NCBI RefSeq assembly: GCF_004010195.1 | Contig: NC_057755.1 | Span: forward strand, 149,042 to 213,041 | Length of the DNA stretch: 64,000 nucleotides | Direction of reading: 5' to 3' | DNA from: Chiloscyllium plagiosum | Taxonomy: Eukaryota | Shown here: positions 10,026 through 64,000 of the stretch, piece after piece | Layout of the letters: every line of letters begins with the position of its first letter | Position numbering within the stretch: the first letter of the stretch is position 1 | Translations under genes and position numbers: made by a program | The notes under the pieces: generated by a model | What the model saw: only the letters and a program-made list of their open reading frames with translations | What the model was told of the DNA's origin: nothing | The model's database searches: none

Positions 10026-11320
10026 CTTGCAATTGAGGTTAGCGCAAAAGAGGAGCAACCTTTCTAAACACAATCTCCACCGCCCCCACCCTCCACATAG
10101 AATTACCGAGAACCTTCTGGTCAGCATAAGACAAAAATGCTGAGTTGTAGCACTTGAAAAGATTTTATTATTATACAGATAATTTTAACAGAGTTGAGAA
10201 AGGTTTGTTTCATCACTGAAGGCACAAACTGGGGTTCTGTTTACTCACTGAATCCCTCATAGTTTGTTTTGAAAAGTGAACAATTCCTTTTCAAATTTGG
10301 CAAATGTTCTAATTTTGCTTGAACATTCCATTAGCAAATAAGGCAAAATGCAAATAGGGAAATGCGACTTTTTTATTGCAATCTCTGCATTATCTAACTC
10401 AAATAGTCTTGGAATGGCTTTGTAAATATTTTATGAATAAAGTACATAGTGCAAAACAAAACAGTCCTGCAATTACTGAATGTGACAGATCCAATCCATT
10501 GTATAATAAAATATAGTATGATAAAAATCCGGCCTCTCTGACTGTGTGTGGTTTTCTGGTTATGTCAGGGGCAATTGACATTTAAAATAGTAGTACGAAT
10601 ACTCAGCAGTTCCTAGACAGTACATGATTTCACAATACTTCTTTTAAAAAAAATAATCTTTATGTTGTAATGAGAATAATTTAACAAGGTTAGCAATATT
10701 ATTCCACGACATGAAAAATTGATTTATGCATTGTAAAAATGATGAAGCTACAAGCAATTCTTCATTAAACAACTGGAAAGTAGACGCAGCCCATACTGTT
10801 GCAGTGGTCAAAACGAATAACACAGAAAAAAGTCTATTTTACCACCAAGTAAATTCACTTTAACAGTCCTCACTCTTTCTATAATCCCACAGAAATGCAC
10901 AGAGGTTAAAAAAGAGTCTTCATCAACTGATTAAATTAGCTACCTGCTCTGATCCCACTTTCCAGCACCTGGTCCACCGCATTGAGAGTTTCTACACTTC
11001 ACTTGCAGATTCCTTTTAAATGAATTAAGGTTGTTCACCTCAAGCCATCATCAAAACTTGGCAGTAAATTCCAGTCGCACCATCATATTCTGAATGAAAA
11101 AGTAGGCCTCAGTGCCTCAATAATCCTCCCATCAGTTTTTTTCACGCTGAGCTTCCTGGTAAATCGTCCTACATTCGGGAAGACAAGTCTCCATCCAAGA
11201 TCCTGCTTATTTTCTACATCCCAATCATGTCAAATCTCATTCACCTATGTTTATTGAAAAAGACTCTACCCTATCCATCTTTCCTCAATGTTGCACTAAT
11301 TTCCTCACAATGCCAACATT

Positions 11321-12251
11321 NNNNNNNNNNNNNNNNNNNNNNNNNNNNNNNNNNNNNNNNNNNNNNNNNNNNNNNNNNNNNNNNNNNNNNNNNNNNNNNN
11401 NNNNNNNNNNNNNNNNNNNNNNNNNNNNNNNNNNNNNNNNNNNNNNNNNNNNNNNNNNNNNNNNNNNNNNNNNNNNNNNNNNNNNNNNNNNNNNNNNNNN
11501 NNNNNNNNNNNNNNNNNNNNNNNNNNNNNNNNNNNNNNNNNNNNNNNNNNNNNNNNNNNNNNNNNNNNNNNNNNNNNNNNNNNNNNNNNNNNNNNNNNNN
11601 NNNNNNNNNNNNNNNNNNNNNNNNNNNNNNNNNNNNNNNNNNNNNNNNNNNNNNNNNNNNNNNNNNNNNNNNNNNNNNNNNNNNNNNNNNNNNNNNNNNN
11701 NNNNNNNNNNNNNNNNNNNNNNNNNNNNNNNNNNNNNNNNNNNNNNNNNNNNNNNNNNNNNNNNNNNNNNNNNNNNNNNNNNNNNNNNNNNNNNNNNNNN
11801 NNNNNNNNNNNNNNNNNNNNNNNNNNNNNNNNNNNNNNNNNNNNNNNNNNNNNNNNNNNNNNNNNNNNNNNNNNNNNNNNNNNNNNNNNNNNNNNNNNNN
11901 NNNNNNNNNNNNNNNNNNNNNNNNNNNNNNNNNNNNNNNNNNNNNNNNNNNNNNNNNNNNNNNNNNNNNNNNNNNNNNNNNNNNNNNNNNNNNNNNNNNN
12001 NNNNNNNNNNNNNNNNNNNNNNNNNNNNNNNNNNNNNNNNNNNNNNNNNNNNNNNNNNNNNNNNNNNNNNNNNNNNNNNNNNNNNNNNNNNNNNNNNNNN
12101 NNNNNNNNNNNNNNNNNNNNNNNNNNNNNNNNNNNNNNNNNNNNNNNNNNNNNNNNNNNNNNNNNNNNNNNNNNNNNNNNNNNNNNNNNNNNNNNNNNNN
12201 NNNNNNNNNNNNNNNNNNNNNNNNNNNNNNNNNNNNNNNNNNNNNNNNNNN
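11321..12251. other. Assembly gap (931 N)
   Basis: Run of N. Confidence 1.
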
Positions 12252-15200: not shown

Positions 15201-16077
15201 CTGTCACATCCCTGACCAGAGCACCAGGGAGGCAACATACCATCCGGCAGTCCAGTTTTCGGCGACAGAAATGCCTATCTACTCCACTCACAATAGAATC
15301 CCCTATGATTATGGCCCTGCGAGTCTTGTTCCTGCCCTTCTGATCCAGGCAACTGCTGCCCTGCCCTGATGAGCCATCTCCCCCAACAGTATCCAAAATG
15401 GAATACCTGTTTTGAATGGAGATGACCGCAGGGGACACCTGCACTGCCTTCCTTCTCTTTTTCTGTCTTTTGGTCACCGGTTCACTGTCCCCATCAGCAA
15501 TTCTAACCTGTGGTGTGACCCACTTCACTCAACTTGCCCTCCACGACCTCCTCAACATTGCAGATGCTACACAGTCGGTGTATCCGCAGATCCAAAGCCG
15601 TCATGCGTCAAAGAAGAGCTGCATATGGAAACACGTCTTGCAATTGTAAAAATCAGGAACGTTAGACACGTTTAAAGGTCCCACATCAAGCAAGAGGCAC
15701 AGTCCACGGGCCTGAGGTCCCCTGCCATTGTAAGGTTAGCTTTATATGAACGAACTAAAACCAAACAATACACTTAAATATATGAAGAAGAAAGGTAAAG
15801 AAAAATTAAAGCCTTACCTAACTGAGTCTTTTTCTTCCGGTTAGAGGAGGGGGCGGGAGGGGGCACGTGCAATCTCTCGGGTTTAGCCACTGCCCAAATA
15901 TAAAGTAAGCCCTTGCCTTTCCAGCAGCCCTCGCTTCACCTTACCTTCTCTCCTCGCCGCTCTGTCAAAATGGAGGTCCGATCCCGAGGTAAGTGCCATT
16001 TTAAATGGGAAAGCTTACCATTCCCGGCAGCCCTCGCTTCAGTCCACCATGTCTCCTCGCCGCGGTGTCAAAATGGA
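12252..16077 (-). mobile_element. Near-full-length CR1 LINE (5' UTR, ORF1 esterase, ORF2 endonuclease-RT), inactivated
   Basis: ORF1 RAIIIGDSIVSGVD (SGNH esterase), endonuclease PTRERAILDLVL...SDHNSV, and RT WRIAHVVPLYKKG...RPVSLTS. Multiple stops and deletions. The 3' end runs into the gap. Confidence 0.93.
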
Positions 16078-16884
16078 CAGACGTTTATTGCAAATTAAAT
16101 GTTGATAAAATAGAATAAAGCAAACTAAGTACTTATAACGCAGTTTCAAAGGCAATGAACATTGAGTAAATGTTTAATTCTCATTAATCTCAAAAAATGC
16201 ATCAATGAAACAAAAGGACCCGACTGTTATATATTATATGAAACAGGACTCCGAGTGGTGTTCCAAACAAAACAACCCTTAAACAATATTCAGAATACAA
16301 TCCCTGTATCTAGCATTTGATTGAATAACTTGTGACTGCCACTTCTCAACTGGAACAACAGTAAATTTCTTCTTGGAGCTACCACACACCTGATTGACAA
16401 TAACACTACTTCCTGAGAACACACAGCATTCCAAGGCAATGTAATTTATTAAAACGCTCAATTCTTTCGGATGAGCATAGATCTATACATCCACTCAGTT
16501 CCAGGGTCTTACAGGAACTAACTGAAATGACAAAATTGATTGAAATGAAAGTAATTCTTCCTCATTTCAGGGTTTCGTCCTTAATCGCAAATTCCAGAAT
16601 TCTTCAAGAAATCTTTCATGTCCATTAATACCATGCTGTTGCAAACATCAAAATTAAACAAAGGTTCATCGTGCTAAAATCCAATCAGCCTGCAGCCAAA
16701 TCTCAAATCTCAATTTTAAAACAAATTGTTGCGATTACTGAAATAGCTTCATGTTAACCATTAACTTCAGATGCACAGAGAAGCCCGCTGCTTATTCACG
16801 AAAAAAAGAACCAAACTCAACCTAAATGATTACAAAACTTATATTTTTCCACTGATTCCTGGACTTAATTCCACCAACATTCTC

Positions 16885-19350
16885 CTCAGTCTTGAAATTA
16901 GCAAATCGGGCAGCAAATTAAAAAGCTGATCCATGGGTGTTCCCGAGTGCTCATTAGGCCGAAGAACGCGTTTCTGGAAACATTGGTTCCAGGAGGAAGG
17001 GCTTTGGACATCTTACTTATTGGAAATACTTATCAGGCTGGGGCGATCTGGATACAGTGCATCTGTTTTTTTTTACTTGAATGGGGACTGCTACCGAGCT
17101 GGGTAGACATGCTCCTATTCTTGGGGAATACTTAATCAGACCTGTCAGAGGGTTGGGAATATGGGATTAAACTCAGTTTAATTGAAGATGGCCACGGGAA
17201 GTAGAAAACCTGTAAGTGAAAGAGAACAGCATCAAAATCGCCTTTCTGGATTTCTTAAGATATCGAACTTCTGAATCCTAGTCTTCAGAACCTATCATTT
17301 TCCTTTCATGCCTCATAGACTTAGGGGCACGGGTATTTCCAGCCAGCGCATTTTTTTTTTTGGATTTTCGGGAGACCCACAATGACATGTGTGTAAAATG
17401 ATACAGTTACTGTTGAAACATAACATTATTCTTATTTTGTCTTTTTGATGAGGTGTCGAGGTATTTGTTCAGAAACAAAATGACACTCGCATAGATGTCT
17501 GTTTCCTCACTCTCCATGGGAGTCGTACCAGAGGATTGGAAGAATGCGAATGCTGTTCCCTTTACAAGCAATGTAATAGGAAAATCACGGCCAATTGTAG
17601 ACCAGTCAGTCTGACATCTGTGGTCAGCAAGGTTTTTAAAAGAATTCTGAGGGATAGGATTTATGACGATTTGGAAAAACATTGTGTGATTAAAGGCAGT
17701 CCAGCATGGATTTGAGAGGGATAGGTCTTGCCTCACTAATCTCATTGATTTCTTTGAGGAGGTGACAAGACAGGTCGATGACAGTCGCGCAGTGGATGTG
17801 GTGTATTTGGACTTCAGCAAGGCATTTGATAAGGTTCCCCGTGGTAGGCTCATTCATAAGGTCACGAGGTGTGGGATATAAGGAGATTTGGTTATCTGGA
17901 TTCAGAATTTGTTGGCTGTTAGTGGCTGTAGATGGAAATTATTCTGCTTGGAGGTTACTGTTGAGTGGTGTCCCGCAGGACTCTGTTCTTGGGCCTCTGC
18001 ACTTTATAGTTTTTATAAATGACTTCGATGAGAAGGTTGAGGGGTGAGTTAGTAAATTTGCAGATGACACAAAAGTTGCTGGTGCCGTTGATAGTATTAA
18101 GCACTATTGCAGCCTGCAGCGCGACATACACAGGATGCAGAGCTCGGCTGAGAAATGGCAGATGGAGTTCATCCCAGATAAGTTCATTTTGGAAGGTCCA
18201 ACTTGAATGCTGAATATAGGATTAAAGACAATATTCTTGACATTGTGGAGGAACAGAGGGAGCTTGATCTTCAACTGCACAGATCACCCAAAGTTGCCAT
18301 CCGAGTGGATAGGTTTGTTAAGAAAGCATATGGTGTTTTGGCTTTCATTAACAGGGTGATCGCAATTAAGAGCCGCGAGGTTTTGTCACATCTCTGCAAG
18401 TCCCCGGTGAGACCACGCTTGGACTGTTGTGTCCAGTTCAGGTCGCCCTAAAATAGGAAAGACACAGAGGCTTTGGAGAGGCTGCAAAGAGGGTTTGCCA
18501 GTATGCTACCCAGCACGAGGGCTTATCTTATGAAGAGGGGTTATCTAAGCTCGGCCGTTTCTCCTTGAAACGAAGGGGGAAAGCGGTGGCCTGATCGAGG
18601 TATACGAGGTCATGAGAGTTATGGTTAGTGTCAATAGCCAGAGACCTTCCCCCCAGAGCAGGATTGATTGAGACGTGTAGGTCATGTTTTTAAGATATTA
18701 GGAGGAACGTATAGAGGAGACATCAGAGGCAGGTTCTTCACACACAGACTTGTGAATACATGGAATGCGTTGCCAGCAGAGGTGGTGGCAACAGAGTCAA
18801 TAGGGACAATTAAGCAACATCTGGACATGCACCTGGACAGCAGTGAATTGAGAGGTAAGTAGGCTAGGTCATTTTATTTAAGACTGGAATAATTATTGGC
18901 ATAAAATCATGGGCCGAAGTGCCTCTTCTTTACTTTACTTTTCTATGTTCTGTGTCCTAAGTTCCATGGCATCAATATCGTGAACTGTTCACAATCGTCG
19001 AAAAACTAAAGCCACAATGCACAATGAAGGGACTAATTTATTACATATGGCAGCATTGAATTGATGCAAGAGCACAGATGTGAGCATGCAGCACTTTTTT
19101 TTCAAAAATTGAGAACACGATGTGAATAGCAGTATGCAACAATATTACTGCATTTGTGAAGAATGACCTTAAAGTGCTCAAATGTTTGTTAAGGTGGAGA
19201 ATGAAGAAATGAATTTGGAACTCAGAACCCTGAATCTAAATAAAGAGAACAAAAAGGAATGGATGCAAAAATGGTCAAAATGGATTGAGTTCCCAGTGGA
19301 TAGGCTATGGCTGAAGAGTTATGAACATCTCAATGAATCTCAACCATAAT
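16885..19350 (+). repeat. GPCR-unit upstream block (ancient CR1 remnant), interrupted by a younger CR1
   Basis: CATTGGTTCCAGGAGGAAGGGCTTTGG and GTGGAGAATGAAGAA...CTGAATCTAAATAA match 45150-45950 directly and 1140-3060 inverted. Confidence 0.75.
17485..18965 (+). mobile_element. 5'-truncated CR1 LINE
   Basis: VPEDWKNANAVP, VYLDFSKAFDKVP, SGVPQDSVLGPL and KFADD motifs, with a (TTCTATG)-like tail. Absent from the paralog at about 2515. Confidence 0.93.
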
Positions 19351-20150
19351 TCAGTCCCCTCTAAGACAATAATCAAACAGGAAAGGTAACAATGAAAAGT
19401 GCTGCCGGATTCCAGGACTGTTCAGGAAGCTTTCTGATTCCCACCCATTTACTGAGAATGCACGAACGCTGTTGCTGCCGATCAGGCTAATCCAATTGCA
19501 CCTCTCGTTCCAAACCCATCGCACATGTGTTGGTGTGCGACTTCCTATCAAACACCTTCTCTGGTCTAGGCTGATAATGCAGGTTTCCAATCCAACCTTA
19601 GCACCCACAGACGATTATATCATTCAGGAACACGTGACTCTCAGAGATCACCCTGTCCAGTACAGCACAGGTTTGGTCGGAGTGAACCACTAATCCCACA
19701 GCAGACCTAACTGAGTTGGTGATGAACTCAGGCAGGATTCTGTAAACTGCATTAAGCAGTGAAACCAATACCAACTCCTCCATCTATCCCTTATAATTGA
19801 AGATGAGAAGAATGGTAATTTTCCTGTTGGATTCACACAGCCTACCTGTTCGAAAGCATACTGTTGTCCACTTTCAGCAGGTCCAGGCCAATCAAGTGCC
19901 ACAGAAGTGAAAATAACTCAGGTGGTAAGCCATCACTTCTGGAAGTTTATCTCTTTTCCAAGGGCTTGAAAGCCTTGGGCAGCTCCTCCAGCGATAACTG
20001 CTGGTGCAGATTCTCCCGTCTGCTGTCGTCAAAGAGAATAGAGGACAGGAACAAGTGGGGGTCTGCGCTGTCTTTGTGCTTCGTGTCCAAAAGACCGGCA
20101 CAAAAGGATTTGCTGATCCTCAAGACGTTCTTCCGCTGGTCACTCTATCA
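19350..20150 (-). mobile_element. Tx1/L1-clade LINE ORF2 fragment
   Basis: CIISLDQ and NGWESESF motifs. Paralogous to 46060-46830. Confidence 0.8.
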
Positions 20151-20494
20151 TTAGAAAACCTTTTAATTGAGACTAATTCGGCAATTAGCCTAATGCCTGG
20201 CTTAACAAACAAACAACTATTGCTTGGTTTGTTCCTTTTACTACATGCTGTCTCAAAAGTCACAAGTTATTCTTAGCAAACAATTCCCAGTTCGCATCTT
20301 GAAACACATTTTATTAAAAAGAATACAAATGAGAAAAAGTCAGTAAAGGTTTCTATTATCTCTGCGCCCCTTCATTTCTTAATTATTGATCACTTTCTCC
20401 TTTGGGAATTCGCTATGGTTTATGAATAGGAAGGGATTAGACATATGGGCTAAATGAGACAATTTAGGATATGTGATCAGCATGGATGAGTTTG

Positions 20495-20820
20495 ATTTGA
20501 TTCGATTTGATTGATTTATTGTCACATGTACAGATGTGCAGCGAAAAGCTTTATTTTTGAGTAGTATGGGCAGATCATTCTAAGCAAGGATATACAGAGC
20601 AAGATGGTGAAACAGAAGCATACGGGTTACATTGCAAAGGGTTTACAATAGAGAACAATGTTGGAAAGGTCAACTTTTCTTGAGTCAAGAGAGTCCATTT
20701 AATAGAACTAATAACGGCTTGGCAGAAGCTGCTGTTGTGTGTCCTCGGGCTTTAGTACTTTCTGCCTGAAGGAAGAAGTTGTAGGGGTTCATTACAGGGT
20801 GGGAGAGGTATAACGGAGTA
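20495..20820 (-). mobile_element. Probable Rex/Babar-type LINE 3' end
   Basis: (TTTGA)n tail and TTTATTGTCACATGTAC...CTTTCTGCCTGAAGGAAGAAG resemble the reverse of Rex-Babar 3' ends. Confidence 0.5.
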
Positions 20821-21004
20821 CATATTAGCAATTAGCTCACGCAATGGCCTGGGTTATCAGCATGTCAGACTGCGATGAGGTGGTATATTGATGTAGATAA
20901 TGAATTGGTTGAATGAACAAATTTGCAAACAAACGTGAACAGTTCCTACACACAACAATATTTAGATAAAAACTCGAACATCTCCAATACAAACAATATT
21001 TAGG

Positions 21005-21812
21005 TTCCAATGCACGATCTTGATCAGATGGGCCAATGGGGTGAGAAGTGGCAAATAGAATTTAATCCACGTAAATGCTGCATTTTGGTAAGATCCTTGA
21101 GAGTGTTGCTGAACAAAGGGAACTTTGAGTGAAGTATCATAGCTCCTTGAAAGTGGAGTCGTAGGTAAATTTGTTAATGAAGAAGGCGTTTGGCATGCAT
21201 TTCTCTATCAATTAGAGTATTGAGTACAGGAGTTGTCAAATCATGTTGCAGCTGTACAGGACATTTGTTTGACCACTGTTGGAATAGTGCGTGCATTTCT
21301 GGCCTCCTTCCTATCGGAAAGATTTTGTTAAACTTGAAAGGGTTCAGAAAAGATTTACGTTCATGTTGCCAGGTTGGAGGATTTGAACTATAGGGAGAGG
21401 CTGAACCGACTGGGGCTGTTTTTCCTTCAGCGTCGGAGGCTGAGGGGTGATCTTATAGAGGTTTACAAAATTATGAGAGACATGGATAAGATAAATACAC
21501 AAAGTGTTTTTCCTGGCGTGGTGGAGTCCAGAACGAGAGGGCATAGGTTTAGGGTGAAGGGAAAAGATATAAACGAGACCTCAGGGGCAATTTGTACGTG
21601 TATGGAATAAGCTGGCAGAGGAAGTGATGGAGGCGAGTACAATTGCAACATTTAAGAGGTATTTGGATGGGTATATGAATAGGAATGGTTTAGAAAGATA
21701 TGGGTCAACTGCTGGCAGGTGGGACGAGATTGGGTTGGGATATCTGGTCTTCTGGACGGGTTGGACCGAAGGGTCTGTTTATATGCTGTACATCTCTACA
21801 ACTCTATGACTG
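21005..21812 (+). mobile_element. CR1 LINE 3' fragment
   Basis: YRERLNRLGLF...RRLRGDLIEVYKIM...TRGHRF, and 3' UTR GTTGGACCGAAGGGTCTGTTT...ACTCTATGACT. Confidence 0.93.
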
Positions 21813-22009
21813 TAATAGTGCTACGTGTAAACATAATCAGCTCTAATATAAGTCAATATTTGTACAGGCACAAACGGTTCCAACAAAATAAAAAATACAT
21901 AATGTATATTATACACATAAAACTTGAAAGAAATTGGAAATGAAGGATTTGTAGCCAAATTTGCAGATGACACAAAGATAGATGAGAAGGCAAGTTAGCA
22001 CATTGCATG

Positions 22010-22780
22010 TGCTTTCTTAGGTACGGGGATGGTGGTAGTCTTTTTGTAGAAGATGGGGACTTCAGCTTGTTGGAGGGACAATTTGAATATGTCGGTGAAC
22101 ACCTGCGCTTGTTGGTCCACATGGTCTAACAGCACCGGCAGGGACTCCAGCCAGGCGCGTCCCTTTCCTTGGATTGCCCTGACATGTGCAATGGTGAACG
22201 AGGGAACATGTGTGTCTGGGACTGTTGGGGCAGATGTCTCTGCACCTCTGATATTTTCCTTAAACCAAGCAGATAAAGCGTTGAGCGCCTCAGGGAGCGA
22301 TGTTTGCGAGCTTGATCTGCTTCCTTTGTATCCTGTAATGTTTTTTAGGCCTTGTCATCGGCAACGGGTGCCTGCTTGGTAGGTATGGGCCTCTCATGTC
22401 GTCTGTACTCCCTCTTGGCATCCCCGATGGCCTTGCGGAGGTCACATCTGGGTTCCCGGTATAGATCTGGCTCTTCCCGCTATAATGTTACCTGTCTGGT
22501 CTTCAGTAGGTCGTGAATGTTTGATCAACTCAAGAATTTTACTTGGGGAACATTCGGGTTTACTTGGGGAACATTCGCAGAACTCCATCCATTTGCTAAT
22601 GATGCCCATAACGATGGTGATGTTCTCATCCAGGTTTTCTGCTGAGTACTTGAACATGCTCTTTTCCACCAATTCCAAGCAGTCCCGTGATTGTCATTCA
22701 TAGCCTCAGATCAGCATTACACCTCCTTTTGGAAGTGTCCTCCCACTTCAGCTTCTGCTTTAAATGACTTTCCACATGTA
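22010..22780 (-). mobile_element. Rex/Babar-type LINE pre-RT fragment
   Basis: The reverse strand translates to GVPA...DQQAQVFTDIF...LQQAEVP.FYKKTTTIPVPKK. Confidence 0.75.
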
Positions 22781-26054: not shown

Positions 26055-26929
26055 TTATGTGACCAGTTGTTGCACCACATTCCTGAACTTCGCTCTGAAC
26101 TTGGGCAGAGTTGCTGCATAAACGAGTGTGTTCGTGCTGCAGCTTAAATCCTTTAGCATTTCTCCCGCCCAGGTAAACTGCAGTAGACGCCAGTTCCTCC
26201 AACGACGTCCTACTTTAACATTAAAGTATAAGATGTTTGCACCGTACACGACCCACAGGAGTATGAAACTGATGGATATTGTGAATAGGCAAATCACCGA
26301 CTTCCTCCGGGTCTCCATCGTTGCATCGTTGTGACTCTGTCCCTTCCTCTGACCCCTCAGGTTTTTGCGGACTTGATTGGCCACTAAAATGTACCTGACC
26401 GTCAGAGTGTTCATCAACAGAATTAACATGAATGGGATTAAAGGTGTTAAAATGATATCAAACCAGTTAAACCCCAGCCACCTGGGATCAGTAAAATACC
26501 TTGACTTTATATGGCAATACCACTGAACATCGTTAATTATCCGCCCAGGTTCATACCGAAAATAGAAGGGAATGTTTTTTGAACAGAGTAGAATACCAGT
26601 TGCAGCCAAAACCACAGCCAAAGCTTTCTCTGTCCAATATTTGGTCTTCACTTTCAAGCAGCAAATGGCCACAAAACGATCAAAGGAGAAAAGGACAGTG
26701 AACCAGACGGAACAGTCTGTGGCTGCACGGATCAGGACAAAAATAACACTGCACACAGGCACGACATTGAGGGAACACTTTGGGTAGTAAATGTCTCTTA
26801 ATCGCCACAGCATGATCTCAGTGAGAATGAACAGTAGATCCGAAGTTGCCATCGCTAACAGACAGCGCGTTGTGCACTTAGAGAGGCCGCACTTCCCCCG
26901 TGAGAGAATGAAAATCAGCAGGAGATTAA
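26055..26929 (-). CDS. GPR139/GPR142-like class A GPCR, coding exon 2 (end of TM1 to C-terminus), intact
   Basis: Acceptor ctttctttttcag|TT AAT (phase 1). The frame is open for 25 codons before ORF 26055-26852. Motifs: MATSDLL (TM2), PVC and SFDRFVAIC (TM3), WYC (ECL2), TPLIPFMLILLMN (TM5), SFILLW (TM6), TNTLVY (TM7) and a KFR helix 8. Confidence 0.92.
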
Positions 26930-27624
26930 CTGAAAAAGAAAGATGATAAAATGCACATCAGAAATTACTTGTCAAACGTTCTCTGCATCTGCCCAGAGAG
27001 CAATGGGCGATCTTCATATCTAACTGGGCAGGGAACTGACAGACGGGGAAGGAGCATAACTTATAAGGTGAAGGATAAGATGCTTGGGGTATTGGGCGAA
27101 AATGCTTTCTCCTGGAGAGTGGTGTCATTTCTGGTAATTCAGTTCTTGGGAGGGTTGTTAAGATTGGAAACCTCATAATCTTTAACAAGTATCTGGGATG
27201 AGACCAGATTTCATCCCGCCTGTATTGCCCAAGTTTGTTGGACTGATGGATCTCTTCTGAATATTCGGGTTCCACAATTTTAAAAATTATTTCTGGGAGG
27301 TAGGTTGGGAAGTGAAATATTTTCATATAATAATTAAAAGAGCTATGAATACTGAAGATATGAAACAGAAACAGAAAGACTGGTGAAACTTAACCGTTAT
27401 GGTAGCATCTGTGGAGAGAGAAACAATGTTAATGCACTCATTCTTCATCAGAACACCTTTTTCTTTACACTTATCACGGAATTGAGAACATAATCTCGGT
27501 TTTTCCTCGCACAAGGTACTATCATTGCAAACAAAGCACAGGGATTGTTTTCCAAACGGGAATTGAGATCATTGTGTTTCTACTATGGAACATTTATTCA
27601 ACTGCTCATAGCATACTGGGCATG

Positions 27625-52477: not shown

Positions 52478-53210
52478 TATGGGATTTGAAGGCATGCATT
52501 ATACCTTGGAGAGAAAGAAAAAGCTTTTGAGGTGGCAAGACTTTACAGACACCTGTTAAGTGAATATTTCGCATTATCAGAGTATACTGGAAAATTAGAG
52601 GTATGTTACATCTGGCTGCTATGTTAAAATTTAACCAAGAAGTGTTCATGATGCCCAAGAATTACAAACCCCAATCGATTTTGAATGTTACGGTTTTGAC
52701 AACATTGAACCAATGACAAGATGGATGCCTGGGGTATAAACAAGCCGGAATTTTGGACAGTTAGCCAGAGAGAGCGACCATCCGCCATCATCAGAGTATC
52801 TGGTTGCAAAATACTCTCTATCAAAAGTTCCTTTTCATATGAAGCAGCTTTGCCTCAAAAGACCGAAGAAGATGCATGGAATTTTTCAGCTGAAAGAAGA
52901 TAGACACAGACGGCTGCTGTCTGACTTCGAAGATTAGGTTGACACAATTTAAAGAGGGACTTTTATTTGATCAAAATATTGTCACAGATTTGAAGGTAAT
53001 TCACAGGCTTTTAACAGAAAGGAGGCTTAGACTTGTATATAGTTGTGTAGAATTCACTTTTAGAGGTAAATGATAAAATTGATATTTTTCTTTAATTCGT
53101 GGAATTTGGGACATTCTCTGTCACTCATACATTAACTGCTTATGAGGCGAGGTGACCTTTTTCTCTGTGTTGGCTTAATTAGCAGAAGGGTTCACCACTG
53201 TATCATAAAA
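52478..53210 (+). mobile_element. Probable solo LTR related to 47865-49106
   Basis: CCAATGA...GATGCCTGGGGTATAAA and the terminal GCGAGGTGA...TTAGCAGAAGGGTT...TCATAA are shared with the other copy. Confidence 0.6.
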
Positions 53211-54829
53211 CTCTCCATTCCATCGTCTCTATTCCCTTGTATTGAACTCTCTTCAAGTTACTCTCTGGTTAATACTCTCCGTGCTTTTGGTATTAAATCG
53301 TTTCCGTTTCCCCATAGTTAACACTTTCCTCACTCAATTACAAACCATCTTGTTCCAATAAAACTCAATTTAAGCATTTCTCTGTGAGTTTGCATTCAAT
53401 CCCATCCCGTTATGCTTTATTTTACCCTCTCGCTATTACTTTCTCTTTAAACTTTCTATTATTATTGCCTATTTAATCCGATGACTATCATTCTGCATTG
53501 AATTCTCTCCCTGTCACAATCTTTAGTCCCTTCTATAACTCTCTCTATCTTCCCGTGATGCTTTTCAATTTTTGTTTTCCTTTCCAGAATGTGTGTTCCC
53601 CACACAATAACCAGAGATCGAGTGTCCCTGCTAAATCATTTATCATAACTGCTAACACGTGATCGCCGCTGCTGTGTGTTACCGCCTCTCTGGCTGGCGC
53701 TGGAATTGAAAATGTTCCCAAAGCACCGGAGGGGCTCAGCAGCAAACCACACGTCAGACAACATGTTGCTGATCGGGATGAGGCAGGCATGACTTCAACA
53801 TATACTATTATTTACATAATAAAAGCAACTGCTCTGATATACAACAAAAATTATGTGCAAAGTGGAACAGTCACAATACAAAGTAATATTCATGGAAATA
53901 AACTGAAACAGTTCCAATTCACAACTTCTATATACAAAATGAAACAGCTCCAGTACATTTCAATATTTACATCTCGATATGAACCGGTCCACTCTGCAAT
54001 ATTAAAATATGAACACGAACAGTTCGAATGCACAGCTGTTATACACAATATGAACCATTTTATAACAGCTTCAAGACTGATGTATAAACGTAAATGCTTC
54101 AGAAACACAAAATTATTTAAATATAAACATGTGCAACTGCAACACACATCAATGATTATATATAATAGAAAATACAAAATTGTTTGTTCAGAGATAAACC
54201 AATACGTATATACAAGCATGAACAGCTCAGAAACCAAATAGGAATTGAATACGAAGATGAATGCTTTTCAGACACAACTACATTTATCTTTACAAATGAG
54301 TAAATATCTTAAATATATTTACATATAAATTGGAACAGCTCAAATCATACAAAAAGTAGTCGATCAGCACAGAAAAAGTTACACTGCACAGAGTAAGAGA
54401 TATTACACACCAACCTGCAAGAACTGGCAGACACCTTTTATACATATACACAAAACCCCTTAAAAACAGTTACTGAACCATAACCACAATGAGGTATAGA
54501 CAGGGAACAACACTCAGAAACAAACAGAGACAAAACCATAGAGGAACACAGAGAAATCTGCTGGGGGTAGGAAGATATTGACACACGGACAAACAGCCAA
54601 GCACAGTCTGAACAACACACTCACCTGCTTAAACAAGAGCACAGACAGACAGAGCCACACCTTCCATTCCTCAATAATACACCAACAGTCAGAGATTCTC
54701 CCACATACAGTCAAGGAACCACCGTGTCATGCTGACGTCAACACACACACACAATTCGAGACACAGACAGAGAGTGACGTCGCCACAAAAAGCAATAAAA
54801 CATGCCTGAAGAACATGCCTGAATAAAAC

Positions 54830-54865
54830 ATTCCTGAAGAAGGGCCTGTGCCCGAAACGTCGAAT
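54830..54865 (+). ncRNA. Minimal type I hammerhead ribozyme motif (Penelope-associated)
   Basis: ATTC-CTGAAGA-A-GGGC(CTGT)GCCC-GAAA-C-GTC-GAAT. Stem I is ATTC/GAAT, the core CUGANGA and GAAA is intact, stem II is 4 bp, ACGT is palindromic in place of stem III, and the cleavage triplet is GUC. Confidence 0.8.
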
Positions 54866-55472
54866 CTCCTGTTCCCTGGATGCTGCCTGACCTGCTGTGC
54901 TGTTCCAGCAATAAAGTTTCAGAATAAAACATGCCCACATATATTGACCCTCACACACCAGAAGTGAAACACAAAAACACGAACTCCCAATCAGTATCAA
55001 GTAGAGAGAGAGGGAGATAATAAAAGTGCATGACATGGAGGGGATGTTCATTCACTGAAAGGTAATTAGTATTACGTCAAGGTATTGCTGGTTGTGTTTG
55101 TGAATTTTGTGTTTTGCAAGAATCACCTCATCGGGTAATATCAGTGAATGAAGAAATGTGGAAGTGATTTCAGTCAATTCATTTGAGAAAGTGTTAAACT
55201 GAAACTCTACTTATCTGATGTGGAGGAAGTGAGGACTGCAGATTCTGGAGATCAGAATTGACAGTGTGGTATTTGAAAAGCATAGCAAGTCAGGCATCAT
55301 CCGAGGAACAGGAGAATCGACGGTTCCGACATAAACCCTTCATCAGGAAAAGGGCCTGATGTAGTCAATTTGAGAAAACGAAACAGAGGGTGAGGAATAG
55401 ATAGGAAGATAAAGCACGAGATAGAGACAAAGGCAGATAGAGAGACAAAGCTAGAGGGAGACAGAAACAGAG

Positions 55473-55600
55473 TGTAGATTCGTTGTATCAGTTAAGATTC
55501 TGTGAATAAACTGCTGTCTGCGTCTAATCATAGTTGCCAGTGTGAGTCTCTCCTTCCGAAAGAACACGCAAAGACGGGACCCCGCGGGTCCGTCTTAACA
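55473..55600 (+). mobile_element. 128-bp TG...CA segment resembling an LTR R-U5 end
   Basis: Starts TGTAGA, has AATAAA at 55505, a GC-rich hairpin at 55571-55596, and ends TTAACA. Confidence 0.5.
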
Positions 55601-58600
55601 AGGTAAATAATAAAATTGATATTTTTCTTTAATTAGTGGAATTCGGGACATTCTCTGTCACTCATACATTAACTGCTTATGAGGCGAGGTGACCTTTTTC
55701 TCAGTGTTTGGCTTAATTAGCAGAAGGGTTCACCACTGTATCATAAAACTCTCCATTCCATCGTCTCTATTCCCCTGTATTGAACTCTCTTCAAGTTACT
55801 CTCTGGTTAGTACTCTCCGTGCTACTTGATATTAAATCGTTTCCGTTTCCCCATAGTTAACACTTTCCTCACTCAATTACAAACCATCTTGTTCCAATAA
55901 AACTCCATTTAAACATTTCGCTGTGAGTTTGCATTCAATCCCATCCCGTTATGCTTTATTTTACCCTCTCGCTACTACTCTCTCTTTAAACTTTCCATTA
56001 TTATTGCCTATTTAATCCGATGACTATTATTCTGCATTGAATTCTCTCCCTGTCACAATCTTTAGTCCCTTCTATAACTCTCTCTATCTTCCCGTGATGC
56101 TTTTCAATTTTTGTTTTCCCTTCCAGAATGTGTGTTCCCCACTCAATAATCAGAGATCGAGATTCCCTGCAAAATCATTTATCACAATTGCTAACACGTG
56201 ATCGCCGCTGCTGTGTGTTACCGCCTCTCTGGCTGGCGCTGCAATTGCAAATGTTCCCAAAGCACCGGAGGGGCTCAGCAGCAGAACCACACGTCAGACA
56301 ATATGTTGCTGATCGGGATGAGGCAGGCATAACTTCAACATATACTATTATTTACATAATAAAAACAACTGCTCCGATATACAACAAAATTTATGTGCAA
56401 AGTGGATCAGTCACAATACAAAGTAATATTCATGGAAATAAACTGGAACTGTTCCAATTCACAACTACTATACACAAAATGAAACAGCTCCAGTACATTT
56501 CAATATTTACATCTCGATATGAACCGGTCCACTATGCAATATTTAAATATGAACACGAACAGTTCGAATGCACAACTGTTATACACAATATGAACCATTT
56601 CCTTACAGCTTCAAGACTGATGTATAAACGTAAATACTTCAGAAACACAAAATTATTTAAATATAAACATGTGCAGCTGCAACACACAGCAATGATTATA
56701 TATAATAGAAAACAGTTCAGAGATAAAACAATACTTATATACAAGCATGAACAGCTCAGAAACTAAACAGGAATTGAATACGAAGATGAACACTTTTCAG
56801 ACACAACTACATTTATCTTTACAAATTAGTAAATATCTTAAATATATTTACATATAAATTGGAACAGCTCAAATCATACAAAAAGTATTCGATCAGCACA
56901 GAAAAAGTTACACTGCACAGAGTAAGAGATATTACACACCAACCTGCAAGAACTGGCTGACACCTTTTATACATATACACACAACCCCTTAAAAACATTT
57001 ATTGAACCATAACCACAATGAGATATAGACAGGGAACAACACTCAGAGACAAACAGAGACAAAACCAAAGAGGGACACAGAGAAATCCTGCTGGGGGTAG
57101 GAAGATATTGACACACGGACAACCAGCCAAGCACAGTCTGAACAACACACTCACCTGCTTAAACAAGAGCACAGACTGACAGAGCTACACCTTCCATTCC
57201 ACAATAATACACCAACAGTCAGAGACTCTCCCACATACAGTCAAGGAACCACCGTGTCATGCTGACGTTAACACACACACACAACCCGAGACACAGACAG
57301 AGAGTGACGTTGCCACAAAAGGCAATAAAACATTCCCACATATATTGATCCTCACACACCAGAAGTGAAACACAAAAACACAAACTCCCAATCAGTATCA
57401 AGTAGAGAGAGAGGGAGATAATAAAAGTGCATGACATGGAGGGGATGTTCATTCACTGAAAGGTAATTAATATTACGTCAAGGTATTGCTGGTTGTGTTT
57501 GTGAATTTTGTGTTTTGCAAGAATCACCTCATCGGGTAATATCAGTGAATGAAGAAATGTGGAAGTGATTTCAGTCAATTCATTTGAGAAAGTGTTAAAC
57601 TGAAACTCTACTTATCTGATGTGGAGAAAGTGAGGACTGCAGATGCTAGAGATCAGAATCGACAGTGTGGTATTTGAAAAGCATAGCAAGTCAGGCATCA
57701 TCCGAGGAACAGGAGAATAGACGGTTCTGACATAAACCCTTCATCAGGAAAAGGGCCTGATGTGGTCAATTTGAGAAAACGAAACAGAGGGTGAGGAATA
57801 GATAGAAAGATAAAGCACGAGATAGAGACAAAGGCAGATAGAGAGACAAAGCTAGAGGGAGACAGAAACAGAGGTACTGACAACAAGGACCTTAGAGATA
57901 GGGAGAGATAGTGACATTGCGAAAATAGGGAGAGACGGAGGAAGGGCGGACAGAGACAGCAACATGGAGAAAGAGGCAGAGAGACAGAAGGCAATGCCCT
58001 TGTAATGGAAATGTACAGGATGAAAACTCAAGAAACAAGGTCAAAACTGAAAACAAAAACGTGCATTAAACAATAACCATATTAGATGAGGGGATCATCA
58101 AAACTTTGAGACTTTCTCTTTTGGTAATAAACTGTTTATTGAGAGCTGAACAGAAAGATTCTGGCAGTGATCAGATTGTATCTGTTTTTGTCCCTCACCC
58201 TCCTCCTGTGCAGGGTCAATGCAGAGACCCCTCTTAGCGGTCTTCAATACTCATCCATAGGACAGTCCAAGATCCCAACGTTCCAGCTGAACCCATCACT
58301 CACAGCCAGTCTGTCATTTCCAATCACTGCTGCAGCTTCTTTCCATCCTACCCTGCCCCTGACCGTCACCTCTTCCCCATTTCATGCTGTCCCTTTGTCA
58401 CGTCCTTCAATGTTTCTAAAGGTGGAGGTGGATAGGATATTGTTAAGCTTGTTAGGTGGTGATCTTTATCAGGGCACAGACAAAAAATGCGGATAAACTT
58501 TAGAACTGGATGAGCCACGATCTTCTGGAATGGTCGGCGGACCAAACTCGAAGGGTTGAATGGCTTCCTGCTGCTCATTGTCTGTGTGTCCCATGTTTCA

Positions 58601-58818
58601 CAATCCGTCAGTCAATCAGGGCTAGCAGCGTGTTCCTGTGATGGCGAATGGTGACCCATCCTGTTTCCCCCGCTCCATCCACCGTTGAGTGCTATACTCA
58701 GATCCATGTCATTGTGCTGATAGAATCCTGGCTGTACATTTGCAATTCCAGCAGTGGGAACACTGAGGCTGCCTCTGCAGCTCTCTCAGTTATTTTGCTG
58801 ATTTATTAAGTGAAGAAT

Positions 58819-59160
58819 TTACGTGACCATTTGGTGCACCGCATTCCTGAAATTCGCTCTGAACTTGAGTATAGTTGCTGCATAAAATGTTTGTGCTGCA
58901 GCTGAAACCCTTCAGCATTTCTACACTGAACACAAACTTATTTGTAGAACGACTGTACTTTCCAGCAGTTGTGCAGTTAATACTGTAATATAAGAAATTT
59001 GCACCGTCCACTAACAACAGAATTATGAAGCTGATGGATAGGGCGAAGAGAGAAATCACTGACTTCCTCCAGCTCCACATCCCTGTGCCTTTGTGACTCT
59101 CTCCCTTCCTCTGTCCTCTCAGGCTCTTGCGGACTAGACTGGCCACTGAAATGTACCTGA
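58819..59160 (-). pseudogene. GPR139/GPR142-like GPCR pseudogene, 3' remnant of exon 2 (end of TM5 to stop)
   Basis: RYISVASLVRKSLRGQRKGESH...RKSVISLFALSISFIIL...EMLKGFSCSTN, with a frameshift in TM7 and the TM6 Trp lost. The 5' part is replaced by CR1 sequence (59161-59355). Confidence 0.9.
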
Positions 59161-60379
59161 GGATTTCCTCAAACACCTTGCCCACCAACGACATAAACTC
59201 ACCAGCCCATAGTTCTCTGGCTCTTCCTTAGCTTCTTTCTTATATAGTCGCAACACTTGAGCCAACCTCCAGCTTTCTGGCAGCTCACCTGTGACCAGCA
59301 ATGATAAAAGTATCTCAGCGAGTTTCCCAGCAATTACTTCCCTCGCTTCCAAAGGAGTTCACCACAGCAAACTGTAGAATTTGAACTATGAATAAGTCCG
59401 AAATTAAAGATGTGAATGATGACCACAAATCCAATGTTGATCGTCAGTTCATTTCTGTAGTTTAGAGAGGGAAAACTCCATCCTTAAGTGGGCAAGAGAT
59501 GCGTGATTCCAGACCTACGGATATGTGATAGTGAATTGCCCTCTACGCAATTAGGGATGGGCAATAAATATTGGTGCCAGCCTGTGATACCATCTTCCCG
59601 TGATTGAATAAAAAGAATCCATTTCTGAGACCGATGCAAAGGAAGTGGAAGAGGCAATTTAACTAAAGTTTAGATTGTAAAGAGGAATAGCTGAAGGCCA
59701 ATCATCCCCTCCCATGTGTATACAGAAACATCAGATGGGCAATACGTCAGAAGGGAAAGGGAAGTTCTCGTGAGTTGGGCATGTGTGAAGTTCAATGTCA
59801 ATTGGATTGGGAATGAGGCAGTAGTCGGTGAGGTGGACACAGGTGATCTTGGGATGCAAAGAACGCCAGAGTCAACTAATGTTGGCAATGACGAAAGGAG
59901 AGCCAAGTCTCAATATTGAGGGTTTGAAAATTGAAGGGATGACACCTTATTGTGGTTGCTCATCAGAAAACGATGCCTGCTCCCCCCACCAATTCTCACT
60001 AAAGTCTGAAATCATTTATGTTGCCATATATGTAATCCTTCCACAATTCTAAAAATTAATTCTGAGAGGGAGTTTGTGAAGTGATACATTTTCACGAAAT
60101 AAATCAAAGGCTGTGGATACTGAAAATATGAAACAGAAACAGTAATAACTGACGAAACTCAATAGGTATGGTATCGCCTGTGGAGAGAGAAACAGGTTTG
60201 ATGCAATCATTCTTCTTCAGAGCACCTTCCTCTCAAAACATCATCTCGGTGTTGTCCTCTCACAAGGCGCTTACTGCAAATAAAGAACAGGGATTGATTT
60301 CCAAAATGAAATTAAGATTCAGAGTGTTCATATTAATCTACTATGAAACATTTGTTTGACAGATCTTAGCAGACTGAGC

Positions 60380-61250
60380 TTGGTTGGAGTCATTGAGATA
60401 TAGAGCATGGAAACAGTCCCTTTGGTCCAAATCGTCCATGCCGATCAGATATTCGAACATCATCTATCACTATTTGCCCCCAGAACCCCATAAATCTTTC
60501 CACTTTCATTTACTCATCCAGTTGCTTTTTAAATGTTGTAATTATACCATCTTTCTTAATTTCCTGTGGCAGTTCAATTCCATACATGCACTAGTCTTAG
60601 CTTTTAACTCTTTCCACTCTCACCCTCAACCTATGCTCTCTCTCTCTGGTCTCTCATAGACCAGGGAATGTACTCTGTCTGTGTACCTTATCTATGACCC
60701 TCATGATTTTTTCAATCTCTATAATATCACCCCTAGCTCCAACGTCCCATTAAAAACTGAACTATTCAGTCTCTCACTGAAGCTCAAACCCTCCAATCCT
60801 GGTAATATCCTTGTGAATCGTTTCTGAACATTTTCATGTTTCATACCATCCTTGCTTTCAGAGTGAGACTAGAATGTTACACGTTTTTTCCCAAAAGAGG
60901 ACTAAGCGATGTCTTGTACAGCTGCAACATGACCTCACAACTCCGCTAATCAATGGTCTGACCAATCAAGGACCACATACCAAGCGTCTTCTTCACTGTC
61001 CTACCTACCGGAGACTCCACTTCTAAGGAACAATGAAACTGCACTCCAAGGTCTCTTTGTTCAGTAACACTCCCCAGGATCTTATGATTAAGTGTACCGG
61101 TCTAGCCCTGATTTGCCATTCCAACCTGCAGCACCTCAAATTTATCTAATTTGAATTCCGTCCACTTTTCCTCGGCCATTGGTCCATTTGATAAAGGTCC
61201 CATTGTACTCTGAGGTAGCCTTCTTCGCTGACTACTACAGTTTCAAATTT
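60380..61250 (-). mobile_element. CR1 3' part, ancestral intronic copy of a further unit
   Basis: Same flank and tail as at 6730 and 27625. An internal deletion joins it to the CTCACTGAAT.CTCATAG intron block. Confidence 0.85.
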
Positions 61251-63288
61251 ATCGAACCCTTCTCTGTTATGATAAACTAGGGACTTGTTAGCTCACTGAA
61301 TCTCTCATAGTTTGTTTTGAAAAGTGAATAATTCCTTGTCGTGATTAGCAAATGTTCTAATTTTAACTGTACATTCGGTGAGAAAATAATGCAAAATGCA
61401 AATGAGGAAATAGGACTTTTTTGCATTACCTAGCTGAAGTAGTTTTGAAATGTGCTTGTTGATACTTTATGAACAAGCTACACAATGCAGAACAAAATAG
61501 AGAGTTCACTACTGCAATTACTGAATGTGGTAGCTCCAATCTATTGCATAATAACAAAAGTCCGGTCTCCCTGACTCCCGACTGCGTTCTAATCATTTCA
61601 GGGGAAATTAACATTTAACGTGAGAATCTGAATACACAGCAGTTCATAGACAGTACAAGATTTCACAATACTTACTTTTTAAAAAAAAATGTTTTATTTT
61701 GTAATGATAATAATTAAACAAGGTAAGCAATATTAACCTAATTAATTGATAAATCTTAGCTAATATTAATCCTCGCCATGTAAAGTTGCTTTATACATTG
61801 TAAAATTATGAACTACAAACACTTCTTCAGGGAATATCTGGAATTTAGCTGAACTCTCTGGAATTCATTTTAACAATCCACAGTGTTCCAATAGCCGAAA
61901 TGGGCAAAACAGCAGCAGCTCATTTAACCCACAAAGCGAATTCACTTTAACACTCCTTAGTGTTTCTACAATCCCACAGAAATGCATGGAAGTACTAGCA
62001 CTGCAAGAGGTCATTCATGTCTGCAACAAATGAACAAACTATCTACCTGTTCTAATCCTCCTTTCCAGCACCTGGTGCACAGCGTTGAGATTTTCTATAT
62101 ATCAGGTGCAGGTCCAAGTTCCCTTTAAATGACTTAAGGTTAGTCACCTCAAGTCATAATCAAAACAGTGAATTCCAGTCGCACCATCATCTTCTAAATG
62201 TAACGCTGGGCCTCGTGTCCTCGATTATCCTCCCATCAACACCTAACACCATAATGTAAATATCCTCTTTTCTCTCTGTGCAATTCTGTCTGCACTACTC
62301 AGCATTGAGCAGTAGTGTGCACTAAACCACAGCTGTGAGCGATACAGTTTCTCATGTAGTCCCACTGTGACCAATCTGGCAGGAGGTGAAAGAATTTGTC
62401 TTGCGTTGGTCGTGGTACAGAGTAAGAGAAGAATAACATTATGGGGTAATATGGAATTGCATATTTGTGGATATCTGATCAGGGTCTGTGGCATATAATG
62501 GACGTAAACAGATAGAGTTGGATTCTAATCTTTTTGAAATGTGGGGTTAGTTTTTCAGCTCCTCAGCAGTTCGTATAAGTGTTTAATAGCCTCACTTCTC
62601 TTCTGACACCAGCTTTTAAATTACAGAACAAGCCAGATCCTCAATAGAAATACAACTTGATGGATCATAACCTTATTTATTTTGATTTAACAAAGTGGTC
62701 TCTTGCTGAATCGCACACGATGCTGCAAATATTGCTTCACAAAAAAAGAAGATTATTCCAAAAGTAATAACGATAAAATGGAATAAACGAATCCATGAAG
62801 GTATAACACAGATTCAAAGCTAATCAACATGCAGCCAATGTACTACTCTCATTAACTCAGAACAACGCATAAATAAAACAAAAGGACAGGACTTTTATAT
62901 ATCATACAAAACATGACTCTCAGTGCCATTCCAAAGAAAACAACCTCATATAATAGTCACACCAGATTCCTTGTGTCTGCCAATTCTAAACTGGAACTGC
63001 TGTAAATTTCTTCCCAGAGATACCTCATCCCTGAGATTCAGTGTACTCAGCTTAAAACAATTTGTTCAGAGCTTTACCTTGTCCCAACACTTCTGTCTGG
63101 GTCTAATATAGCAATGTAATTTACTAAGACTCTCAGTTCCTACGCATGAGCATAAATTTATACATTCACTCAGTTCCAAGCTATTACTGGAACTAAAAGA
63201 AATGACAAGAATGATGGAAGGTAAACTACTGCTTTGTCAGTTGAGGGTTTCTTCTTTAATTGCAAATTCTAGAACTCTTCAACCAATC

Positions 63289-63971
63289 AATGAAGGTAAG
63301 CATGCAGGTACAGCTGGTAGTGAAGAAGACCAATAGCATGCTTGCCTTCATCACAAGAGGGACTGAGTATAGAAGCAAAGAGGTTCCTCTGCAGCTGTAC
63401 AGGACCCTGGTGAGACCACACCTGGAATGTTGTGTGCAGTTCTGGTCTCCAAATTTGAGGAAAGACATTCTGGCTATTGCAGAAGTGCAGCGTAGGTTCA
63501 CGAGGTCAATTCTTGGAATGGCGGGACTACCTTACGCTGAAAGACTGGAGCAACTGGGCTTGTAAACGCTTGAGTTTAGAAGACTGAGAGGGAATCTGAT
63601 TGAGACATATAAGATTATTCAAGGATTGGACAGTCTGGAGGAAGGAAACATGTTTCCGCTGATGGGTGAGCGCCGAACCAGGGGACACAACTTAAAAATA
63701 CGGGCAGACCATTTAGGACAGAGATGAGGAGAAACGTCTTCACCCAGAGAGTGGTGGCTGTGTGGAATGCTCTGCCACAGAGGGCAGTGGAGACCCAGTC
63801 TCTGGATTCATTTAAGAAAGAGTTGGATAGAGCTCTCAAGGACAGTGGAATCAAGGGTAATGGAGATAAGGCAGGAACAGGATACTGATTAAGGATTATC
63901 AGCCATGATCATAATGAATGGTGGTGCAGGCGTTAAGGGCAGAATGGCCTACTCCTGCACCTATCGTCTAT
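63289..63971 (+). mobile_element. 5'-truncated young CR1 LINE
   Basis: LYRTLVRPHLECCVQFWSP and 3' UTR GAATGGCCTACTCCTGCACCTAT. Flanked by AATC at 63285 and 63972, with an empty site at about 16610. Confidence 0.93.
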
Positions 63972-64000
63972 AATCTTTCAGTCTCCCTTTTAACCACGCT

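What the first reader, a model, noticed from the sequence alone, without database searches (positions are those of the whole stretch)
54794..54935. Hammerhead-ribozyme mini-insertion with 13-bp TSD and an empty paralogous site
Seen: copy 1 of the tandem duplication carries about 130 extra bp, flanked by AATAAAACATGCC (54794-54806 and 54923-54935). Copy 2 (about 57324-57340) is empty. The insert is only the Penelope-type repeat, with an intact minimal hammerhead (predicted cut after GUC at 54861) and no coding sequence. Established: Penelope-like elements carry minimal hammerheads whose palindromic stem III loop permits dimeric cleavage. Inference: this is a recent, post-duplication retrotransposition of a tiny ribozyme-bearing RNA, either retrozyme-like or an extreme 5' truncation.
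Basis: partly seen in the sequence, partly recalled or inferred. Interest (0 to 1): 0.7.

Follow-up and report, generated by a model that had tools for sequence, protein, structure and literature searches.

The report
Solo Penelope end with minimal hammerhead
This small insertion is real and recent, but it is one of many thousands of short end-pieces of a known kind of jumping gene (a Penelope-like element) carrying a known minimal hammerhead motif; such pieces stop unusually often at the motif's first bases, which likely marks where the copied, uncut RNA begins.

Summary
In detail: 129 extra bp between two identical 13-bp repeats; copy 2 is empty, and a third paralog 120 kb away is empty with exactly the duplicated sequence, so the insertion is younger than the duplications. 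A 20-mer of it occurs 23,656 times in the genome. In 99 position-ordered arms, 3' ends fall at two sites about 36 nt apart (the published PLE 'tail'), and 54 of 99 5' ends fall in 9 nt at the hammerhead's 5' edge; none starts at the predicted cut. The template was therefore uncleaved; neither a retrozyme circle nor random truncation fits. Most likely the RT primed internally near the RNA's 5' end and ran off its start (inferred; no RNA-end data). Cleavage is untested and the lone motif has no partner. The scan already noted this kind of thing on other DNA: 37 notes in at least 15 genomes, this one included. Ordinary as a locus.

The parts
54794..54806 (+). left target-site duplication (13 bp)
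   Evidence: identical to the empty site of the third paralog L148
54807..54829 (+). 5' junction filler: element bases, target bases, element bases, target bases (two aborted priming rounds, inferred)
   Evidence: decomposition; contigs of runs X5 and X6 cross the left joint and the filler
54830..54921 (+). solo pLTR (92 nt) of a young EN+ Penelope-like element, ending at 3' site A, without the tail
   Evidence: 0 mismatches to pLTRs of ORF-linked copies L054, L177, L180
54830..54865 (+). minimal type I hammerhead motif; predicted cut after 54861; helix III only possible in a dimer
   Evidence: sequence; pair table; description in PMC4209133
54828..54834 (+). position equivalent to the family's 5'-end cliff; in long copies it reads as an initiator-like TCATTCC, A+1 = 54830 (the initiator consensus is recalled)
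54910..54915 (+). AATAAA hexamer of the pLTR (possible polyadenylation signal)
   Evidence: poly(A) loose ends just downstream of the same place in RNA run X21 laid on sister L131
54922..54922 (+). single G at the 3' junction, in neither this subfamily nor the duplicated target
   Evidence: sisters read A here
54923..54935 (+). right target-site duplication (13 bp)
57324..57336 (+). empty paralogous site in copy 2 (private G>T at 57334)
53064..55472 (+). copy 1 of the tandem duplication (holds the insert)
55601..57873 (+). copy 2 of the tandem duplication (95-98% identical)
55275..55349 (-). older, decayed pLTR of the same family with a broken core; shared with copy 2 (57676-57750), so older than the duplication

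Best explanation
The insert is a solo pLTR of a young, very abundant endonuclease-positive Penelope-like element, likely made when the element's reverse transcriptase primed inside an uncleaved transcript about 92 nt from its start and ran off the RNA's 5' end. Steps: (shown) the 92 nt are identical to the pLTR that follows the RT/GIY-YIG ORF; the insertion came after the duplications and made a 13-bp TSD; family 3' ends sit at two sites and 5' ends at one cliff on the hammerhead's 5' arm, upstream of the cut site. (From published work on Poseidon PAc) the protein nicks target DNA and starts RT at two internal sites, using uncleaved RNA. (Inferred) transcription starts at the initiator-like site in the pLTR, so an RNA from that promoter can only give a ~92-nt (site A) or ~128-nt (site B) copy; the target's free 3' end then annealed to the cDNA end by a 4-of-5 microhomology, slipped twice (the filler) and finished the second strand. 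The hammerhead is a passenger here: it needs a partner copy for helix III, has none nearby on this strand, and is predicted to be silent at this locus. The copy lacks the tail and ORF start, so it is likely a dead end.
For: Post-duplication: third paralog empty with the exact TSD sequence, four 72%-identical homologs ungapped across the site; the paralogous 20-kb segment has a single unit; X6 contig with the paralog-type empty site. Parent: exact pLTR preceded by the endonuclease C-terminus in L054, ORF start-gap-pLTR in L174-L177 and L180, pLTR-ORF-pLTR in older L186; Pfam RVT_1 (E 1e-6, 5e-6, both just under the curated cut-off) and GIY-YIG (E 1e-4, above cut-off in L066). Abundance and youth: 23,656 exact 20-mer matches, control 0; the 40 best places 99-100% identical. 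Ends: of 99 arms, 39 end at site A, 53 at site B, 7 between; all 25 inverted pairs with both arms sampled have one A-type and one B-type arm, as the two-start model of PMC11167929 predicts. 5' stops per base at risk: 54/412 in the 9-nt window, 31/5429 inside it, 4/751 beyond it, 3/428 around the cut site; Fisher p 3e-43; solos alone 22/223, p 3e-17. Promoter and start site lie in the pLTR of D. virilis Penelope (PMC2377424, passages).
Against: No direct RNA 5'-end evidence: RNA run X21 gave no place where many molecules begin or end, and 87% of its laid reads run on into unrelated sequence, so they are mostly passengers in host transcripts. No extra-G (cap) signature: base before the 5' end in 37 arms was C 11, A 10, G 9, T 7. 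The 9-nt window was chosen after seeing the data and arms of one inverted pair are not independent, so the p values are optimistic. The sample is the first 14 Mb of one contig. Age alone is weak: zero changes in 92 nt has probability 0.15 even at the paralogs' divergence. No gap-free full-length young copy was recovered (assembly gaps).
Confidence: 0.62

Rival explanations
1. Same parent and same solo pLTR, but the fixed 5' end is made at DNA level: the element's GIY-YIG endonuclease cuts the new cDNA or duplex at the ATT of CATTCC, or the RT is stopped there by bound protein.
For: [quoted passage not shown]
Against: Stops tail off on the inner side of the cliff over about 6 nt and end sharply outside it, as expected for a template end trimmed by microhomology joining; the site is also initiator-like and PLE start sites are known to lie in the pLTR.
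Confidence: 0.17
2. The insert is a monomer offspring of a non-autonomous, retrozyme-like mini-element: tandem 200-320-nt units with a hammerhead in each are cut, circularised and reverse-transcribed in trans.
For: Such tandem, internally deleted units with the identical pLTR exist (L032, L040, L042-L044, L128, L135-L146); animal retrozymes derive from PLE pLTRs and leave dispersed monomers (10.64898/2026.07.22.740005).
Against: The insert holds none of the unit-specific sequence; a circle has no end at the cliff; 0 of 99 arms start at the cut site and the stop rate around it equals background; tandem junctions differ from locus to locus and look like template jumps; the dimer-active fold costs 8.8 and 10.4 kcal/mol in the two natural tandems tested (nearest-neighbour model without tertiary contacts). 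A linear transcript of a mini-element as template cannot be excluded, but that is the best explanation with another donor.
Confidence: 0.1
3. Ordinary random 5' truncation of a long PLE cDNA that happened to stop just past the hammerhead.
For: PLE insertions are known to be heavily 5'-truncated (PMC8557442, passages); 31 of 99 arms stop at scattered places inside the pLTR and 14 go beyond the cliff.
Against: About 23-fold excess of stops in 9 nt; this insert begins exactly at that cliff.
Confidence: 0.07
4. The insert is ancestral and was lost from the paralogs.
For: The three paralogs form a star (45, 34 and 37 private differences in 2219 columns), so copy 1 could be the earliest branch.
Against: Two close paralogs and four distant homologs are empty; precise loss would be needed; both TSD copies and all 92 nt are unmutated while flanks differ by about 2% per lineage; an older pLTR shared by both copies is only 80-81% identical to the insert.
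Confidence: 0.02

Closest known systems
Solo or 5'-truncated pLTR insertions of EN+ Penelope-like elements, with optional 30-40 bp tail and inverted partner (PMC8557442, PMC3846280; passages read)
   Same: pLTR sequence, TSD, optional tail of about 36 nt, head-to-head inverted pairs, partial tandems, microhomology at the 5' junction.
   Different: The passages read treat 5' truncation as variable and explain solos by recombination or deletion; here solos carry their own TSDs and over half of the arms share one 5' boundary.
[quoted passage not shown]
   Same: 4-bp helix I, CUGANGA, unpaired base before helix II, G10.1-C11.1 pair, palindromic helix III positions, mostly found as single motifs in truncated PLEs; monomers showed no cleavage there.
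   Different: Helix II is 4 bp here, against 7-8 bp in the S. mansoni families; activity of this sequence is untested.
Poseidon PAc of Anolis carolinensis (Frangieh et al. 2024, PMC11167929; parts 1-2 of 4 read, supplementary figures not seen)
   Same: Two internal RT start sites that define the tail, priming on both strands, uncleaved RNA as template, protein-dependent hammerhead.
   Different: Parent here has a CX4CX2C linker before the GIY-YIG domain (Neptune/Nematis type); its ORF start lies downstream of the tail, not inside the hammerhead.
Animal non-LTR retrozymes (10.64898/2026.07.22.740005; part 1 of 5 and passages read)
   Same: ORF-less, type I hammerhead, derived from PLE pLTR; tandem mini-units of this family in the genome would meet that paper's definition.
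   Different: This locus is a monomer, not a tandem; its ends are not the cleavage site.

Membership tests
EN+ Penelope-like element (solo pLTR of one) | pLTR contiguous with a single ORF encoding RT then C-terminal GIY-YIG | tested here: met
   L131, L113, L054: RT end, GIY-YIG, stop, 3' UTR, pLTR; L186 pLTR-ORF-gap-RT-pLTR. No gap-free young full-length copy.
EN+ Penelope-like element (solo pLTR of one) | optional 30-40 bp tail at one end | tested here: met
   3' ends bimodal, 39 A, 53 B, 7 between, of 99; this insert is A-type
EN+ Penelope-like element (solo pLTR of one) | inverted and partial-tandem insertions; TSDs | tested here: met
   55 of 99 arms have an inverted partner; TSD of 8 nt or more in 22 of 44 solos, mostly 10-16 bp, control 1.2%
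Neptune/Nematis clade | Zn-finger-like CX2-5CxxC linker between RT and EN | tested here: met
   CX4CX2C upstream of the GIY-YIG motif in L131, L066, L113; motif described in PMC8557442
Neptune/Nematis clade | RT phylogeny with named clade members | not tested
   no reference PLE proteins were fetched; no tree built
Minimal type I hammerhead | core CUGANGA / GAAA / UH with helices I and II and palindromic helix III positions | tested here: met
   insert intact; core intact in 135 of 141 young and 35 of 56 older places; loop II varies while stem II holds; no compensatory changes seen
Minimal type I hammerhead | self-cleavage (dimer or protein-assisted) | not testable with these tools
   no read pile-up at the cut site in X21, a weak test; folding z-scores near 0
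Non-LTR retrozyme | tandem units, each with a hammerhead | tested here: not met
   single motif; next intact core in the window is 54 kb away on the other strand
Non-LTR retrozyme | unit ends set by self-cleavage; circular RNA intermediate | tested here: not met
   0 of 99 arms start at the cut site; circular RNA itself not testable with the runs at hand

The most novel reading that the evidence does not exclude
Solo hammerhead-headed pLTRs are the main product of PLE retrotransposition: internal priming 92 or 128 nt from a pLTR start site makes the enzyme run off the RNA's 5' end, so thousands of these stubs map the start site, place the hammerhead in the first 36 nt of the mRNA (where a protein-assisted or dimer cut would remove the cap), and imply that full-length copies need a tandem read-through or a template jump.
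Probability: 0.55. Interest if true: 0.5.

Novelty: new member of a known kind. Interest (0 to 1): 0.22.

Why it matters
As a locus it matters little: one of over ten thousand stubs. It is a clean dated example (two empty paralogs) of how a PLE insertion is finished, with a readable two-step stutter at the 5' junction. The family-wide pattern is of more use: if the shared 5' boundary is the RNA start, genomic stubs give a free map of PLE promoters and a testable role for the still unexplained pLTR hammerhead (cap removal from the element's own mRNA rather than release of circles). The scan has already reached this reading on other DNA.

Tried and rejected
Rfam: no hit at gathering score in the window; seven chance hits at E<=10, none a hammerhead. 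A 60-nt DNA search of the genome returned nothing because the words are too common; replaced by an exact motif count. The first genome search was biased to copies that resemble this 5' junction and was not used for end statistics. Long 'open frames' of 900-2100 aa were assembly gaps; 15 further loci gave no gap-free full-length element. Thermodynamic folding gives no support for a special structure (z -0.09 to -0.22). Cap-derived extra G: not seen in 37 arms. Presence/absence polymorphism: no joint for an empty copy-1 allele among the 15 of 82 joints shown, and 32 of over 15,000 pieces listed, so inconclusive. No RNA holder was listed for the locus; RNA runs X22 and X23 laid nothing, which is no test. 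Earlier-findings look-ups by place and by sequence were empty. Paper searches found no paper stating a fixed 5' boundary of solo pLTRs; only open-licence papers are searched and supplements were not read. No protein homolog search, fold or tree was run: not needed for the verdict.

Full report
Observation. The window reads, on the + strand: a 13-bp repeat (54794-54806), 116 nt, and the same 13 bp again (54923-54935). A self-comparison shows the tandem duplication 53064-55472 / 55601-57873 at 95-98% identity, with the extra 129 bp only in copy 1. Copy 2 is empty at 57324-57336 and differs from the TSD by one base. A search of the genome with the empty site found a third close paralog (L148, 96%); it is empty and carries the TSD sequence exactly, so the difference is private to copy 2. 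Four homologs at about 72% identity align without a gap across the site. The third paralog belongs to a segmental duplicate of at least 20 kb with a single unit. The three copies form a star (45, 34, 37 private differences in 2219 columns), so branching order does not date the insert, but loss would have to be precise and the insert is unmutated. Contigs of two of four runs laid (X5, X6; one study; one may be the assembly's source) cross the left joint and the filler, reaching 25-26 bases into the element, so the junction is not an assembly slip. Polymorphism could not be told.

Anatomy. The element part is 54830-54921 (92 nt). It opens with a minimal type I hammerhead: helix I 54830-54833 with 54862-54865, CUGAAGA, a bulged A, a 4-bp helix II, GAA, the palindrome ACGU and C17 at 54861. 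This fits the min-HHR of metazoan PLEs described in PMC4209133, where single motifs did not cleave and dimers cleaved weakly (parts 1-2 of 4 read). Rfam does not detect it and folding gives no signal. The target's end matches the element's first bases at 4 of 5 positions. I read this as two aborted rounds of second-strand priming (inference). Fillers of 4 nt or more occur in 9 of the 22 TSD-bearing solo sisters, so it is common. One G at 54922 is unexplained.

Family. The 40 best of 735 candidates were 99-100% identical. An internal 20-mer has 23,656 exact matches, control 0; inverted pairs count twice and older subfamilies not at all. Copies that continue upstream show a fixed 3' UTR preceded by a GIY-YIG domain, and copies that continue downstream show an ORF start about 65 nt past the tail. 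Pfam gives RVT_1 for L137 and L186 (just under the curated cut-off) and GIY-YIG for L066, L131 and L196 (above the cut-off only in L066). pLTRs with 0 mismatches to the insert follow the endonuclease C-terminus in L054 and close ORF-gap-pLTR loci L177 and L180. The CX4CX2C linker points to the Neptune/Nematis type (PMC8557442, passages); no tree was built. Young full-length copies are collapsed into gaps.

Ends. I fetched all of the first 100 listed places (first 14 Mb of contig C1), which gave 99 distinct arms. 3' ends: 39 at site A, 53 at site B about 36 nt further, 7 between. All 25 inverted pairs with both arms sampled have one A-type and one B-type arm. This is the tail signature that PMC11167929 traced to two internal RT start sites, with extension from both target strands and uncleaved RNA as the main template (parts 1-2 of 4 read). 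The insert is A-type. 5' ends: 54 of 99 fall in the 9 nt equivalent to 54828-54836, 31 inside, 14 beyond; none at the cut product's first base and 3 within 2 nt of it. Stops per base at risk are 0.131 in the window against 0.0057 and 0.0053 on either side and 0.007 at the cut (p 3e-43; solos only 22 of 44, p 3e-17; window chosen after inspection). In long copies that place reads TCATTCC, an initiator-like sequence (consensus recalled). D. virilis Penelope has its promoter and start site in the pLTR (PMC2377424, passages).

Mechanism. The simplest account is that the RNA starts at the hammerhead's 5' arm, the RT starts 92 or 128 nt downstream, and the cDNA ends because the template does. This explains the size, the retained uncut hammerhead and the inverted pairs whose two arms meet at the same place. 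It is not proven: RNA run X21 (about 2% of the run read, 823 reads laid on sister L131 at 90% likeness) shows both orientations, 87% of reads running on into unrelated sequence and no pile of starts or ends; X22 and X23 laid nothing; no extra G was seen in 37 arms. A cut by the element's own endonuclease at the ATT is the main rival, since PAc prefers ATT near the ORF-pLTR junction. Tandem mini-units that would meet the retrozyme definition of 10.64898/2026.07.22.740005 (part 1 of 5 and passages) do exist in this genome, but a circle gives no stop at the cliff, and the dimer-active fold is 8.8 and 10.4 kcal/mol above the ensemble in the two tandems tested. At this locus the motif has no partner.

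Novelty. Solo pLTRs, tails, inverted pairs and min-HHRs are published (PMC8557442, PMC3846280 passages; PMC4209133; PMC6155905 passages). Five paper searches did not find the fixed 5' boundary in print; subscription papers and supplements were not seen. My reading was noted before the look-up; the scan then showed 37 similar notes in at least 15 genomes, two of the eight listed from this genome. These are unchecked AI notes and add no support. One of them suggested the extra G, which I tested and did not see. Verdict: a real, recent, ordinary insertion; new member of a known kind; interest 0.22, or 0.5 if the run-off reading is shown by RNA-end mapping.

Noticed in passing
window 55473-55600: 128-bp spacer between the two tandem copies; starts TGTA, ends AACA, holds AATAAA, very deep in all four runs and with poly(A) loose ends after 55527 in run X3. 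Looks like a piece of a high-copy LTR at the duplication junction.
   Followed up: partly
G000:C46:316000-335999 (L197, L198): A segmental paralog of at least 20 kb, 94-98% identical to window 10314-22340 and 52925-64000, with a single copy of the unit that is tandem in the window.
   Followed up: partly
window 26058-26957 (-), 4465-5357, 58269-59160: Single-exon rhodopsin-family GPCR ORF (7tm_1, E 2e-13) and related, partly broken copies; the duplicated unit lies downstream of one of them.
   Followed up: partly
L032, L040, L042-L044, L128, L135-L146; G000:C8:24157646-24158520: Internally deleted tandem mini-elements (units of 194-320 nt) with a hammerhead in each unit; one junction type recurs in about ten loci, so it may be an amplifying non-autonomous family.
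   Followed up: partly
L131:1401: 57 RNA reads of X21 carry a poly(A)-like loose end just after 3' site A, about 12 nt past the pLTR's AATAAA (agreement 0.57; may be one host locus or internal priming): solo pLTRs of the young subfamily may donate poly(A) sites.
   Followed up: no
L047, L050, L061, L071, L124: Inverted pairs often show one or more extra C just 5' of ATTCC at the central junction; either a start at -1 or bases added to the cDNA end.
   Followed up: no
window 54832-54865 vs older copies: The young subfamily closes stem I position 3 (U-A) where 50 of 56 older places have U-U: a single change that completes the 4-bp helix.
   Followed up: partly
L046:67-1083 (-): A solo sister sits beside a 339-aa open frame that looks like a retroviral-type pol piece (by eye).
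   Followed up: no
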